Origin: Naegleria gruberi
Lineage: Eukaryota
Strand: one strand, 5' to 3'
DNA length: 64,000 nucleotides
NCBI GenBank assembly: GCA_000004985.1
Contig: GG738849.1
Shown here in pieces: positions 40,390 through 44,087 of this stretch; position 1 is the first letter of the stretch; each line of letters starts with the position of its first letter. The notes under the pieces are model-generated. The model had not been told where the DNA came from, searched no databases, and saw only the letters and a program-made list of their open reading frames with translations. The position numbers were made by a program, and so were the translations under genes.

Positions 40390-40506
40390 CAAATTTCTCA
40401 TCAATTTTCCAACAAAAATTCAACTCTCATTAAGACAGCAGTTCATTGATGGTCAATAATTGAGATAGGATTTGTGTAAAGTTGGGTCTATTGGATGGCT
40501 CTTGGT
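40390..40506 (-). repeat. Copy B of the 117-bp duplicated segment, in its native context at the 3' end of the receptor-kinase gene.
   Basis: See copy A. This copy covers the final 24 codons (WDQEPSNRPNFTQILSQLLTINELLS*) plus about 40 bp of 3' flank. Confidence 0.8.
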
Positions 40507-43487
40507 CCCATGTTTGCTTCATCAATTCAATAAAGAACTCGACTGATTTGAGCAGTTTTTCATTTGGTCCATCGGTTGTGAAATAGTTTCTATCTGAATC
40601 CCTCATAAAACTATTCATCCACTCACTCAATTGAATTCGTGTTGTAAAAGGAATTTTAGGTCGAAGTCCATCATTAGAAACCTTGAAAATAATATTAAAA
40701 GCATTGACTCTCTCATTTTCTAATGGAGGAGAGAAATAATGAATCTTTCTCGATTCCTCATTTAAAAATGGATTTTCCTCAAAGAATAATTCAAACATTA
40801 CAATTGCAAATGAATAGACATCAATCTTATGCAAGAGATCACTCTGTTTTTTCATGTCAGAGTTAATCATTTCTGGACTCATATAGAGCAAAGTTCCGAC
40901 TGTAGCAGTGTAGAGAGAATGTCTTGATCCATTATTAATGGTTTTTGAAAGTCCAAAATCACAAACTTTTGCCTTTCCAGAAGAATTGATGAGAATATTT
41001 GCAGGTTTTAAATCTCTAATTTTCAGAGTTGGTTAATAAATATATTTTAGGAACTATAAACTTACCTGTGAATAATTACTGGATTGAGTCCGTGTAGATA
41101 TTTCATTCCACTATTTGTCGTTCCATTAATTATATTAGAATCCATCAAAAATTTGAAACATACCTTGCGACATCAATGAGAATTCTTAATTTTTGTTTAA
41201 AGGAAATATTCTCCCTTCCACACTTTGACTCGTAGATAATTTTGTCAAGACTTCCCTTGTCCATATATTCAACAACCATGAATTTCTTAGTCTCTGTTAT
41301 GCAAATTCCATAAAAGGACACAATGTGAGGATTTCTCAAGTTGACCAAAAGTGCAACTTCTTTTTCAAATTCTTCCTCATCTGTATTTTCTGAATTTTGA
41401 TGAAATGATTTGACAGCAACATCTGTAGAGACATTCCATTTAGCTAAATACACTGATCCAAATCCGCCTTCAGCAATCTTTTTGCTAAATGTTAAATCCT
41501 CAGAATTAATAATAAATTTGGAAATTTTCTTGAGCTTGGTTCTTGGAGTGTTATTTACAGAAAAGTCAGCACTCAGAGACATGGAATCTCTTGTATGGAC
41601 CTCCTCTCCATATGATTGAAATGGACTCTCAAGAAGCTTACGTCCAATATCTTCATCAGCTTGTTCTCTCTTGGTCAATATCGAAACTCTCGCTCTCATG
41701 TACGAAATTTTCTTTACAATCTTTGAGAACAAAAATCCAAAGACACCACCCACTATTACTGCAATTAATAATCCTAAAATTGATAAGCTCACTACCATTG
41801 CTGTTGGAAAACTCTTCACACATTCACTCTCTCCAAGTTCATATCCACTCGGACAATCTCTAAATACCAAATCAATCGATAGACTTTCTGTAATTAGTGA
41901 AAGTGTAAGACTATTTCTGTGAGGAATATCGCGAAAACGTTTTCTTATTTGCAGTCCAATGCCATTAGGAAGGGCAAATTTCGTAATTTCAAAATCATAA
42001 AAGAAATCAAATATTTGAATTCTCTCTTGCATGAGTGCAAATTCGTTTCCCAAAACATCGGCCATTTGTAAAAATTTTAAATCCATTCTCTGTCCAAAGA
42101 AAACTTGAATGCTCTTTGGGTTTTTCACGACACTACTAATTTTACCATCAATGTCAAAAAAAGTAATTTCGAAATCTAAGATTGATTTGATGGGGCTTGC
42201 AAAGCTATTTCCATAAACCGATGCCTGATTGCCATGTATGGTAATATTATTGAGAAAGTTCAAAGTGTCAACATGGGATGTGACAAATAAGCCAGCTCCA
42301 GCAAAGGATGCAATATTATCTATGATAGTGGTATTCTCAACATGGAAAGAAGTTGAGAAATAAAAACCACCTCCACCCCAAGTAGCTCTGTTTCCACTAA
42401 TAACAGTTGATCCCAAGAAACCAAGTTGTTTCACTGAAAATGCGCCGCCAGTTCCTTTGCAATCTACGAACTCTGTTGAAATTGTACTATTACTCATTGA
42501 ATCCAACGAGTTCTCTATAAATATACATTCATTAATTATTAGGCCACTCACATATTCTGTGCCACCACGATAGAAGAGAGCTCCTCCTGATACACTTGCC
42601 CTATTTTTCTCCAAGAGGCACTTGTGAATGCCTCCTACTCCTATATTATTAAAATAAAGAGCTCCTCCACTTCCACCAATTGCCTTATTAGCAATAAAAG
42701 AAGAGCTCACAATATCCAAGATTTGGATTCCAGTCCCAGATATGGCTCCGCCATTGGTTGTTTTACCATTATTGATAAAAGTAGATGATCCACAAGATAA
42801 CGACTTTACATTTTCTACAAATATTGCACTACATCCATTATCTTTGAAATTACTATTTAACAATTCGACACTGGAAGCATGACTAATATGAATCAAGCTT
42901 TTTTGTCCAACTCCACAACGATTTTCTACCATTTCTAAATCTTTCAATGAAATAGATGATGAATATCGAATAGTAAATGCATTTCCTCCCATATCTTTCA
43001 CTTTCAATCCCTTCAAATTAACAGTAAAAACAATTTCTAAATCAAATACGAAATAATCTGTAGAAACGGCATGTTCAGAAAAGCCAATATATGAATCAAT
43101 AAAGTTAAATTGTTGAATGGATCTCAAATTCATTTTCCAATGCAATCCAATAGAAAATTCAACTCGGGACATGTTAAATAATTGGACGTTATTGATATCA
43201 AACTTGTTGTGTGCTTCCACAACCATTGATGTATTTACAATCTCTACAATGTCAGCCGATTCAATCGTTAATCCTACATAAATTAATTGGGAATTGTGAA
43301 TATGAACAGTAATTGAAGCATAAACCTCCACATCCGAAAGAACTGAATTTGACACACTGAGTGCAAAAGTTGGATTGACCAAACAATTCTTCACTCTAGA
43401 ATTTTGAATTTTGTAAAAAGGAGCTTGAACAAAATTCATTTCCACATTCTCCAATCCAACATTATATAAATTACTCAATATCAATTC
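40430..43487 (-). CDS. Receptor-like TKL-family protein kinase with a right-handed beta-helix (pectin-lyase-like) ectodomain, one TM helix and a Ser/Thr/Tyr-kinase domain. The 5' end is partial (runs into the N gap) and there is an internal frame break.
   Basis: The ectodomain carries repeated beta-helix triads (NNGKTTNGGAISGTG, NKAIGGSGGALYFNN, NRASVSGGALFYRGG, GNRATWGGGGFYFST). TM helix VVSLSILGLLIAVIVGGVFGFLF. The kinase has the GxGxxG motif AEGGFGSVYLAKW and the VAIK-lysine region VAVKSF. Two micro-introns lie in the kinase domain: 41111..41163 (GTATGT...AATAG) and 41015..41065 (GTAAGT...ATTAG). The catalytic loop is IIHRDLKPANILINS, then DFG and SPE. HRDLKPANIL and GKAKVCDFGLSK lie in different frames (1-nt discrepancy near 40978..40985). 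Confidence 0.75.
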
Positions 43488-43537
43488 NNNNNNNNNNNNN
43501 NNNNNNNNNNNNNNNNNNNNNNNNNNNNNNNNNNNNN
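43488..43537. other. 50-N assembly gap of unknown true size, interrupting the 5' region of the receptor-kinase gene.
   Basis: Run of n characters. Confidence 1.
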
Positions 43538-44087
43538 TAGATAAACTTCTAGTAAGGACTGTCGAACCCTCTTGCTTCCAAAATCAAAATACCAACAAGG
43601 ATAGTTTCCATCAAGAATCCTCCTAACATTGACTCGACCGTTATATTTTACATATTTAACACAGTTATTTGGTAATCATAACAATACATTGGATTGCCAT
43701 TCTTTCTATCTTATCGATTGGGTAGACGAAGAGTTACAGCAGTGATTTGTGAATGGTGCAGTAACCAACTTTCAAGTAGGTGGTTGACTTGTTAACATGA
43801 AAATCAAACCAGCTCTATTCACAATTCCTTCCTATCATTTAGGAATCCAATCTTTGTGCTACTTTTTGCAACACCTTACTGGCAGGACAATCGATAATCT
43901 CAAAATGAGAAGTAGCAATATTACACGTTCAATTGCCATGTATTGATTGGTTCAGATTCTTACAACCTCTCATAGATGCTACATCAGTACTATCGCCACA
44001 AACAATATGAAGAAGTGGAAAGCAAAGGTGTAATTCTGTTTAGTTTGTTTTTAATAATAAATATTTTACAGATCATCAGTAGATGAT

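What the first reader, a model, noticed from the sequence alone, without database searches (positions are those of the whole stretch)
40430..43620. Receptor-like kinase with a beta-helix (pectin-lyase-fold) ectodomain, TM and TKL kinase; 5' end lost in a 50-N gap
The extracellular part, over 500 aa, is built of glycine-rich parallel beta-helix triads (…GG[AG][IL][SY]…, about 10 rungs) typical of pectate-lyase/adhesin-like right-handed beta-helices. It is followed by a single TM helix and a tyrosine-kinase-like catalytic domain. This receptor-kinase layout is lineage-specific (amoebozoan TKL expansions) and the ligand-binding fold is unusual for a kinase. The first coding bases abut the 50-N gap. 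Just beyond the gap a short minus-strand ORF starts with a signal-peptide-like METILVGILIL… (ATG at 43609-43611), but it cannot be joined with confidence.
Basis: partly seen in the sequence, partly recalled or inferred. Interest (0 to 1): 0.5.

Follow-up and report, generated by a model that had tools for sequence, protein, structure and literature searches.

The report
Naegleria receptor kinase with beta-helix ectodomain
This is a real, intact gene of the soil amoeboflagellate Naegleria gruberi for a cell-surface receptor: an adhesin-like beta-helix outside the cell, one membrane helix, and an active serine/threonine-type kinase inside. It belongs to a small uncharacterised Naegleria family, and the public gene model for it is wrong at both ends.

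Summary
On the minus strand, one open frame runs from the 50-N gap (43487) through a repeat-rich ectodomain, one TM helix and a kinase N-lobe. Two short introns (53 and 50 nt) complete the kinase, which stops at 40430.

The window is Naegleria gruberi NEG-M (Heterolobosea), not an amoebozoan.

A 98%-identical metagenome contig supplies the missing 150 N-terminal residues, including a signal peptide. The METILVG ORF beyond the gap is unrelated, and the gap hides at least 1.6 kb.

- **Kinase:** TKL-type (best solved match CTR1, 2.5e-38), with all catalytic motifs and an HRDLKPAN loop. It is not a true tyrosine kinase.
- **Relatives:** collinear proteins in N. lovaniensis and N. fowleri. Protostelium has a similar layout, probably assembled independently.
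- **RefSeq model:** XP_002681770.1 (2154 aa, "tyrosine kinase") is a chimera with two downstream ORFs.

The likely function, sensing a glycan or cell-surface ligand by receptor clustering, is inferred and untested. This is an undescribed ectodomain variant of the familiar receptor-kinase theme, of modest interest.

The parts
43488..43537 (.). 50-N assembly gap. It hides the first 150 codons of the gene (signal peptide plus most of the N-terminal module). Judged from the related contig, it hides at least 1641 nt in all.
   Evidence: locates the gap. L001 positions 1642-5186 align to window 43487-39924. L001 positions 1-1641 hold 450 nt of CDS, 341 nt of spacer and an ALO-oxidase gene, and have no match anywhere in the window.
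41164..43487 (-). Exon 1 (5'-partial): rest of the ectodomain, TM helix, juxtamembrane segment and kinase N-lobe, in one open frame.
   Evidence: It is 99% identical to P0001 residues 151-924.
42198..43370 (-). Predicted right-handed parallel beta-helix (composite residues about 190-580, roughly 15 coils).
42273..42779 (-). Six Pmp-type FxxN / GGA[ILV]-like repeat units. GG motifs start at composite residues 396, 424, 451, 497, 522 and 547.
   Evidence: 0 of 20,000 shuffles. NCBIfam TIGR01376 scores 21.2 bits against a cut-off of 15. The motif columns are invariant in family alignment A1.
41808..42191 (-). Membrane-proximal beta-rich domain (composite 583-710), ending in the conserved CPxGY...C motif (C695, C706).
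   Evidence: AF2 strands with pLDDT about 60-88. YGN..AS, GQ and CP.G...C are invariant in A1.
41733..41807 (-). Single transmembrane helix (composite 711-735, PTAMVVSLSILGLLIAVIVGGVFGF).
   Evidence: Highest hydropathy segment of the protein. It is modelled as a helix.
41496..41732 (-). Cytoplasmic juxtamembrane segment (composite 736-814).
   Evidence: It lies between the TM helix and the Pfam kinase start.
40457..41495 (-). TKL-type protein kinase domain (composite 815-1126), interrupted by two introns. Key residues: VAVK K843, HRDLKPAN D941, DFG D959, SPE, RPNF. It carries a roughly 50-aa C-lobe insertion that is conserved in the family.
   Evidence: Pfam PF07714 2.7e-53 and PF00069 1.3e-51, covering the whole model. 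Best PDB match is CTR1 at 2.5e-38.
41111..41163 (-). Intron 1 (53 nt, GT..AG).
   Evidence: Removing it restores the frame and gives DVASGMKYLH, which aligns without gaps to the N. lovaniensis protein and the Pfam model. The RefSeq model uses the same intron.
41066..41110 (-). Exon 2 (45 nt).
41016..41065 (-). Intron 2 (50 nt, GTAAGT..AG).
   Evidence: Removing it restores HRDLKPAN.
40430..41015 (-). Exon 3: kinase C-lobe up to the stop codon (TAA at 40432-40430).
   Evidence: The N. lovaniensis and N. fowleri relatives end at the same point. In the strain comparison, 40430-40627 behaves as coding sequence and 40049-40429 as non-coding.

Best explanation
**What it is.** Window 40430-43487 (minus strand) is the 3' 87% of a Naegleria gruberi gene for a type I membrane receptor kinase. 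The protein is about 1134 aa once the gap is filled from a near-identical contig.

**Layout (composite residues).**
- Signal peptide, 1-24.
- Cysteine-containing N-terminal module, about 25-190.
- Right-handed parallel beta-helix of roughly 15 coils, about 190-580. Its last six coils carry the FxxN/GGA[ILV] signature of polymorphic-membrane-protein (Pmp) repeats.
- Beta-rich stalk with a conserved CPxGY...C motif, 583-710.
- One TM helix, 711-735.
- Juxtamembrane segment of about 80 aa.
- Catalytically intact TKL-group Ser/Thr-type kinase, 815-1126.

**What is shown.** The gene structure, the domain order, the organism, the family relatives and the fold class (the last on a predicted model).

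**What is inferred.** The beta-helix ectodomain probably binds an extended extracellular ligand. A polysaccharide or another cell-surface or substrate component is most plausible, given that this fold serves glycan binding and adhesion elsewhere. Ligand-driven clustering or dimerisation would then bring the kinase domains together for trans-autophosphorylation. This would couple contact with prey, substrate or other cells to intracellular signalling, as in other single-pass receptor kinases.
For: **Organism.** Window ORF 1974-3599(-) is identical to N. gruberi XP_002681762.1. The gene's RefSeq product XP_002681770.1 falls in the same 90% cluster as P0001.

**One gene.** Ectodomain, TM and kinase N-lobe lie in one 779-aa ORF. 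The spliced product covers the Pfam kinase model 1-258 of 258.

**5' end.** Contig L001 is 98.2% identical over 3.5 kb. Its ORF starts MLRCPTLQILILLTLCLFFNTTRA.

**Gene boundaries from the two strains.**
- CDS: 10 substitutions and 0 indels in 2955 nt.
- 40049-40429: 16 substitutions and 4 indels in 381 nt.

**Kinase.** CTR1 at 2.5e-38, then MLT/ZAK, TNNI3K, FERONIA and RIPK2. VAVK, HRDLKPAN, DFG and SPE are present.

**Ectodomain.**
- The motif count exceeds all 20,000 shuffles.
- NCBIfam POMP_repeat is above its cut-off.
- 359 representative-library hits, nearly all to the repeat region.
- Family relatives P0005, P0007 and P0008 each pass the Pfam cut-off for Chlam_PMP, Beta_helix or both.
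- Family profile A1 hits PF02415/PF13229 proteins at E 5e-74 to 1e-23.
- The AF2 model has pLDDT mostly 80-97 over residues 190-580.

**Conserved layout.** N. lovaniensis XP_044549398.1 aligns collinearly over residues 63-1129. N. fowleri XP_044564237.1 aligns over 395-1133.

**Literature.** FxxN/GGA motifs form beta-helix coils in Pmps, which are adhesins (PMC10715098, PMC11166332). TM-anchored Pmp-like proteins in Trichomonas affect adherence (PMC6701047).
Against: - No ligand, localisation, expression or activity data exist for this protein or any relative. The signalling mechanism rests on analogy alone.
- The protein itself fails Pfam's gathering threshold for Chlam_PMP (12.1 against 20.6 bits) and gets no Beta_helix hit.
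- Foldseek against the PDB gave only weak scores (best E 1.6e-3, TM about 0.2).
- The AF2 model rests on a four-sequence alignment. AF2 can be overconfident for beta-solenoid repeats (bioRxiv 10.1101/2024.10.30.621056).
- The N-terminal 190 residues are unmodelled (pLDDT below 50).
- The N-terminus comes from a different strain (98% identical), not from the window.
Confidence: 0.8

Rival explanations
1. The RefSeq model is right. The kinase would be the N-terminal part of a giant 2154-aa cytoplasmic multidomain protein, produced by a roughly 570-nt intron that removes the kinase C-terminus and joins it to the downstream ankyrin-containing ORFs.
For: XP_002681770.1 (P0004) is annotated this way. 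A GTGAGT donor and an AG acceptor exist at the required positions.
Against: - The fusion deletes kinase subdomains X-XI, which the unspliced frame encodes perfectly (Pfam coverage 258 of 258).
- The N. lovaniensis and N. fowleri relatives terminate exactly after the kinase.
- The proposed intron is about 10 times longer than the two verified introns.
- Its first 198 nt evolve like CDS (1 substitution) and its remaining 381 nt like spacer (16 substitutions, 4 indels).
- An ATG (40048-40046) opens the downstream frame.
- The model also starts at an internal Met because of the gap.
Confidence: 0.04
2. The ectodomain is an enzyme rather than a ligand sensor. It would be a membrane-tethered polysaccharide lyase, hydrolase or epimerase, with the kinase reporting or regulating its activity.
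Against: - Sequence identity to those enzymes is 6-13%, and no catalytic motif was identified.
- The sequence signature is the Pmp FxxN/GGA repeat, typical of non-enzymatic adhesin passengers (PMC10715098).
- Adhesins (Vag8, PfbA, EtpA) are also among the hits.
- The ectodomain diverges fast (19-31% identity against 53% for the kinase), with no conserved acidic cluster in alignment A1 outside the structural motifs.
Confidence: 0.12
3. The protein is mainly an adhesin or surface-coat protein, and the kinase is vestigial (a pseudokinase or scaffold).
For: A metagenomic relative (P0008) has the ectodomain and TM helix but only a short tail. Trichomonas Pmp-like proteins have only short tails (PMC6701047).
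Against: - All catalytic residues are present (K843, E in helix C, HRD, DFG).
- The kinase is the best conserved part of the protein across Naegleria species (53% against 19-31%). This points to purifying selection on catalysis.
Confidence: 0.05
4. The gene is broken in the sequenced strain (a pseudogene or misassembly), and the gap marks a real disruption rather than missing sequence.
For: The sequence beyond the gap (proteasome alpha-1 3' end) is not what lies upstream in the related strain (ALO oxidase).
Against: - The 2955 nt present show no stop or frameshift.
- Four of the 10 differences from the other strain over 2955 nt change an amino acid.
- A fixed 50-N run looks like a placeholder for a gap of unknown size (inference). 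A gap of 2 kb or more containing the ALO gene explains the discrepancy.
Confidence: 0.05

Closest known systems
Naegleria paralogue/orthologue set: N. lovaniensis C9374_004390 (XP_044549398.1) and N. fowleri FDP41_001441 (XP_044564237.1), all annotated 'uncharacterized/hypothetical'
   Same: Identical layout: signal peptide, C...PC N-terminal module, beta-helix with Pmp repeats, YGN..AS and GQ motifs, CPxGY...C, TM helix, and a TKL kinase with the same C-lobe insertion. The alignments are collinear.
   Different: Ectodomain identity is only 19-31% (the kinase is 53% identical to the N. lovaniensis protein). The N. fowleri protein is only 30% identical overall (residues 395-1133) and is probably a paralogue.
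Chlamydial polymorphic membrane proteins (Pmp, PF02415 repeats) and other bacterial/archaeal Pmp-repeat beta-helix adhesins
   Same: Paired FxxN and GGA[ILV] motifs, one pair per beta-helix coil, on an extracellular beta-helix (PMC10715098, PMC11166332).
   Different: There is no autotransporter beta-barrel or Pmp middle domain. The protein is anchored by a eukaryotic single-pass TM helix and fused to a kinase. It has only six motif-bearing coils, half of them degenerate.
Trichomonas vaginalis Pmp-like surface proteins
   Same: Eukaryotic type I membrane proteins with a Pmp-repeat ectodomain and a single TM helix (PMC6701047).
   Different: They have short cytoplasmic tails with endocytic motifs and no kinase. 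They come from a different supergroup.
Protist and plant single-pass receptor Ser/Thr kinases of the TKL group (Entamoeba histolytica TMKs; plant RLK/Pelle such as FERONIA and CERK1; Raf-like CTR1 as nearest solved kinase)
   Same: The same topology and a TKL-type catalytic domain with an HRDLKxxN loop. PDB similarity is 1e-38 to 1e-30. EhTMKs are the protist analogue (PMC2880585).
   Different: Their ectodomains are Cys-rich, LRR, LysM or malectin domains, not a beta-helix. No orthology is shown. The nearest kinase sequences are Naegleria-specific.
Protostelium nocturnum transcript EP01117_P006589 (Amoebozoa)
   Same: Signal peptide, Pmp-repeat beta-helix, TM helix and TKL kinase.
   Different: It has about 40 canonical repeats and lacks the Naegleria N-terminal and stalk modules. 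Only the repeats and the kinase N-lobe align, so it was probably assembled independently.

Membership tests
Eukaryotic protein kinase superfamily, TKL group | Full-length kinase domain above the Pfam thresholds (PF07714/PF00069). | tested here: met
   PF07714 scores 181.3 bits (cut-off 23.1) over model positions 1-258 of 258. PF00069 scores 176 bits.
Eukaryotic protein kinase superfamily, TKL group | Catalytic residues intact: VAIK Lys, helix C Glu, HRD Asp, DFG Asp. | tested here: met
   VAVK (K843), EEFEKEV, HRDLKPAN (D941) and DFG (D959) are read directly from the sequence.
Eukaryotic protein kinase superfamily, TKL group | Closest characterised kinases belong to the TKL group (Raf/CTR1, MLK, RIPK, IRAK/RLK). 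| tested here: met
   CTR1 2.5e-38. MLT/ZAK, TNNI3K, FERONIA and RIPK2 lie at about 1e-31 to 1e-30. No formal phylogeny was made.
Conventional tyrosine kinases (the RefSeq name 'tyrosine kinase'; metazoan-type RTK) | Catalytic loop HRDL(A/R)A(A/R)N and the P(I/V)(K/R)W(T/M)APE motif in subdomain VIII. | tested here: not met
   The loop is HRDLKPAN and subdomain VIII is GTLLYMSPE. Both are Ser/Thr or dual-specificity type.
Pmp-repeat family (Pfam PF02415 Chlam_PMP / NCBIfam TIGR01376 POMP_repeat) | Repeated paired FxxN and GGA[ILV] tetrapeptides. | tested here: met
   Three canonical and three degenerate pairs with a period of about 25-28 aa. None of 20,000 shuffles reached this count.
Pmp-repeat family (Pfam PF02415 Chlam_PMP / NCBIfam TIGR01376 POMP_repeat) | Score above the curated HMM cut-off. 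| tested here: inconclusive
   Pfam Chlam_PMP scores 12.1 bits against a cut-off of 20.6, so it is not met. NCBIfam TIGR01376 scores 21.2 against 15, so it is met. Relatives P0005 and P0008 and the family profile pass clearly.
Chlamydial Pmp autotransporters (type V secretion) | C-terminal autotransporter beta-barrel (PF03797) and Pmp middle domain. | tested here: not met
   There is no such Pfam hit. The C-terminal part is a TM helix plus a kinase.
Pectin-lyase-like right-handed parallel beta-helix fold | Three-dimensional superposition on solved beta-helices. | tested here: met
Pectin-lyase-like right-handed parallel beta-helix fold | Pfam Beta_helix (PF13229) or Pectate_lyase_3 hit on the protein itself. 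| tested here: not met
   No hit at E up to 1. Relatives P0007 (60.7 bits) and P0008 (26.1 bits) do hit PF13229.
Type I single-pass receptor kinase topology | N-terminal signal peptide, one TM helix, C-terminal kinase in one polypeptide. | tested here: met
   The TM helix and kinase are in the window. The signal peptide is seen only in the 98%-identical contig L001/P0001 and was judged by eye, with no predictor run.
Plant RLK/Pelle (IRAK) family | Kinase domain nested within the RLK/Pelle clade in a phylogeny. | not tested
   Only similarity ranks are available. FERONIA and CERK1 score lower than CTR1.

The most novel reading that the evidence does not exclude
Naegleria, including the pathogen N. 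fowleri, may carry a lineage-specific family of receptor kinases whose sensor is a Pmp-type adhesin beta-helix, possibly captured from prokaryotes. The amoeba would use it to recognise bacterial or host surface glycans and trigger feeding, adhesion or differentiation. Protostelium would have evolved the same solution convergently. If so, this would be a pattern-recognition receptor class built on a fold not previously linked to kinase signalling.
Probability: 0.2. Interest if true: 0.55.

Novelty: new variant of a known kind. Interest (0 to 1): 0.3.

Why it matters
Single-pass receptor kinases have arisen repeatedly in eukaryotes by joining a kinase to whatever extracellular module was available. 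This gene adds a Pmp-type beta-helix to the list of sensor modules, in a deep-branching free-living amoeboflagellate. Related proteins occur in the brain-eating N. fowleri, where a surface-exposed receptor with a druggable kinase could bear on adhesion or prey and host sensing.

On the practical side, the work corrects a public gene model. XP_002681770.1 is truncated at the 5' end by the gap and fused at the 3' end to two unrelated ORFs. A metagenome contig was identified that supplies the missing 5' end. None of this is surprising in kind, and no function has been demonstrated.

Tried and rejected
- **Joining the METILVG ORF (43611-43549) to the gene.** Rejected. It ends in a TAG before the gap, and the true N-terminus in the near-identical contig is different.
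- **Amoebozoan or dictyostelid origin.** Rejected by an exact protein match to N. gruberi.
- **Word-indexed homologue search with the ectodomain alone.** It found only the protein's own cluster and one weak Pmp hit. The exhaustive representative search and a family profile were needed.
- **The afdb50 fold library.** Unavailable, so the spread of this architecture among predicted structures could not be surveyed.
- **Locus look-up of the N. gruberi kinase paralogue P0281.** Not on record, so the number of family members in N. gruberi itself is unknown.
- **The Naegleria genome paper (PMID 20211133).** Not held.
- **Literature searches.** Eight searches found nothing on Naegleria receptor kinases or on Pmp-kinase fusions.
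- **Horizontal-transfer origin of the repeat region.** Considered, but not testable with such short degenerate repeats.
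Full report
**1. What is in the sequence**

Only bases 1-44332 of the window are real sequence. 44333-64000 are N, and a 50-N gap lies at 43488-43537. On the minus strand an open frame starts at the very first base after the gap (43487) and runs 779 codons to 41145.

Two canonical GT..AG introns (41163-41111, 53 nt; 41065-41016, 50 nt) restore the kinase motifs DVASGMKYLH and HRDLKPAN. 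The frame then continues to a TAA at 40432-40430, giving a 5'-partial protein of 984 aa.

**2. Organism**

A neighbouring ORF (1974-3599, minus strand) is identical to Naegleria gruberi XP_002681762.1. This gene's own RefSeq product, XP_002681770.1 "tyrosine kinase", falls in the same 90% cluster as the best database hit. The window is thus N. gruberi NEG-M, a heterolobosean (Discoba).

**3. The missing 5' end**

The only close database relative of the ectodomain, P0001 (99% identical), lies on a 5.2-kb metagenome contig (L001, ENA ERZ929261). That contig is 98.2% identical to window 43487-39924. There the ORF extends 150 codons further upstream to MLRCPTLQILILLTLCLFFNTTRA..., a typical signal peptide judged by eye.

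Upstream of it lie 341 nt of spacer and a D-arabinono-1,4-lactone-oxidase gene (PF04030, 3.4e-81). None of these 1641 nt is in the window. The sequence beyond the window's gap is instead the 3' end of a proteasome alpha-type-1 gene. The gap therefore hides at least 1.6 kb, or synteny differs between the strains.

The METILVG ORF (ATG at 43611-43609) ends at a TAG at 43551-43549 and is unrelated to the gene.

**4. Gene boundaries and the public model**

RefSeq XP_002681770.1 (P0004, 2154 aa) has three faults:
- It starts at an internal Met (MNFVQAPFY...).
- It splices out the last 66 codons of the kinase through an intron of about 570 nt.
- It continues into ORFs 38527-39441 and 35998-38487. 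The latter has ankyrin repeats.

Four lines of evidence argue against that fusion:
- The unspliced frame encodes kinase subdomains X-XI, and the Pfam model is covered 1-258 of 258.
- The N. lovaniensis and N. fowleri relatives stop exactly after the kinase.
- The window/L001 strain comparison separates coding from non-coding sequence, as tabulated below.
- An ATG at 40048-40046 opens the downstream frame.

| Region | Length | Substitutions | Indels |
|---|---|---|---|
| Whole CDS | 2955 nt | 10 | 0 |
| Disputed segment 40430-40627 | 198 nt | 1 | 0 |
| 40049-40429 | 381 nt | 16 | 4 |

The receptor kinase is therefore a separate gene of about 1134 codons.

**5. The kinase**

Pfam gives PK_Tyr_Ser-Thr 2.7e-53 and Pkinase 1.3e-51. 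The best solved relatives are the TKL kinase CTR1 (2.5e-38), then MLT/ZAK, TNNI3K, FERONIA, CERK1 and RIPK2.

VAVK, HRDLKPAN, DFG and GTLLYMSPE are all present. The enzyme should therefore be active and of Ser/Thr (possibly dual) specificity. It lacks the HRDLAARN / PxxWxAPE signature of true tyrosine kinases, so the RefSeq name is not supported.

The nearest kinase sequences in the 5.8-billion-protein collection are other Naegleria kinases. Plant STY/Raf-like and Entamoeba TKLs follow. A C-lobe insertion of about 50 aa is shared with the Naegleria relatives.

**6. The ectodomain**

*Motifs.* Read directly, there are six units of [F/L/I]xxN ... G(G/A)(G/A)[ILVF], with GG motifs at composite residues 396, 424, 451, 497, 522 and 547. 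Three have canonical FxxN and three canonical GGA[ILV]. Neither the GGA[ILV] count nor the paired-unit count was reached in any of 20,000 shuffles.

*HMM scores on the protein itself.* These are marginal:
- Chlam_PMP scores 12.1 bits, below the cut-off of 20.6.
- Beta_helix and pectate-lyase models give no hit.
- NCBIfam POMP_repeat scores 21.2 bits, above its cut-off of 15.

*Exhaustive search.* A HMMER search of 1.84 billion representatives found 359 hits. Only three align over the whole ectodomain:
- N. lovaniensis XP_044549398.1 (P0005).
- Two metagenomic proteins (P0007, P0008).

The remaining hits match only the repeat region. Those scanned carry many PF02415 repeats, and most also PF13229.

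*Family profile.* A profile of the four family members (A1) has invariant columns at every FxxN/GGA position, at YGN..AS, at GQ and at the membrane-proximal CP.G...C. It retrieved 421 proteins at E 1e-5 or better (best non-self hit 4.9e-74). Nearly all of the 120 best carry PF02415 and/or PF13229.

*Structure model.* AlphaFold2 on A1 gave mean pLDDT 70.5:
- Residues 190-580 are mostly 80-97 and show the regular short-strand triads of a beta-solenoid.
- Residues 583-710 form a moderately confident beta domain.
- Residues 1-190 are unmodelled.

*Caveats.* The alignment is shallow, and AF2 tends to over-predict beta-solenoids for repeats (bioRxiv 10.1101/2024.10.30.621056). The independent profile evidence points the same way. 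Published work shows that FxxN/GGA pairs form the coils of Pmp beta-helices (PMC10715098, PMC11166332).

**7. Family and distribution**

- **N. lovaniensis C9374_004390** aligns collinearly over residues 63-1129. The kinase is 53% identical and the ectodomain modules 19-31%. This fits an orthologue with a fast-evolving ectodomain.
- **N. fowleri FDP41_001441** (1077 aa) has the same layout at 30% identity, probably a paralogue.
- **A Protostelium nocturnum transcript** (Amoebozoa) has about 40 Pmp repeats, a TM helix and a TKL kinase. It shares only the repeats and the generic kinase N-lobe. The combination was therefore probably assembled more than once.

All of these are annotated "hypothetical" or "uncharacterized". 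Searches of the held literature found no description of Naegleria receptor kinases or of Pmp-kinase fusions.

**8. How it most likely works**

*Shown:* a type I topology with an extracellular beta-helix and an intracellular, catalytically competent TKL kinase, conserved across Naegleria.

*Inferred:* the elongated beta-helix binds an extended ligand. This fold binds polysaccharides in lyases, hydrolases and tailspikes, and mediates adhesion in Pmps and other passengers. Multivalent ligands would cluster the receptors and trigger trans-autophosphorylation, linking contact with prey, substrate or other cells to signalling.

Rivals are a tethered glycan-active enzyme (about 0.12), a kinase-dead adhesin (about 0.05), the RefSeq fusion (about 0.04) and a disrupted gene (about 0.05).

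**9. Verdict**

The architectural interpretation is supported, and the lineage attribution is wrong.

This is a lineage-specific receptor kinase with an ectodomain type not previously discussed for kinases. It is a new variant of a very familiar kind, in a gene that already exists in public databases under a faulty model. Interest is modest (0.3). The most useful outputs are the corrected gene model, the recovered N-terminus and the definition of the small Naegleria family.

Noticed in passing
window 35684-35813 (compare 40390-40519): A 130-nt direct copy, 93% identical, of the kinase gene's 3' end (last ~90 nt of CDS, the stop and ~40 nt of 3' UTR). It lies 4.7 kb away in the same orientation, about 185 nt past the stop of the ankyrin-repeat ORF. 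It may be a relic of a partial duplication or a shared 3' element.
   Followed up: partly
window 35998-43484 (RefSeq XP_002681770.1): The public 2154-aa 'tyrosine kinase' model is a chimera. It joins the receptor kinase (lacking its N-terminus and its kinase C-terminus) to two downstream ORFs (38527-39441; 35998-38487, the latter with ankyrin repeats). The downstream gene probably starts at the ATG at 40048-40046.
   Followed up: yes
window 43538-44332, and L001 1-1641: Beyond the gap lies the 3' end of a proteasome alpha-type-1 gene (minus strand, 44091-44330). In the 98%-identical metagenome strain the upstream neighbour is instead a D-arabinono-1,4-lactone-oxidase gene. Either the gap is at least 1.6 kb, or the scaffold join or the synteny differs.
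   Followed up: partly
window 44333-64000: The last 19,668 positions of the window are all N. Only 44.3 kb of real sequence is present.
   Followed up: yes
L001 (ENA ERZ929261, PRJEB11402, contig k127_60097): An environmental metagenome contains a Naegleria gruberi-like strain 98.2% identical at the nucleotide level over 3.5 kb. Nearly all the divergence and all the indels fall in the 381-nt intergenic spacer.
   Followed up: partly
P0008 (JGI metagenome, 780 aa): A family member with the complete ectodomain and TM helix but only a ~30-aa cytoplasmic tail and no kinase. It is either a receptor-like protein without a kinase or a truncated gene call.
   Followed up: no
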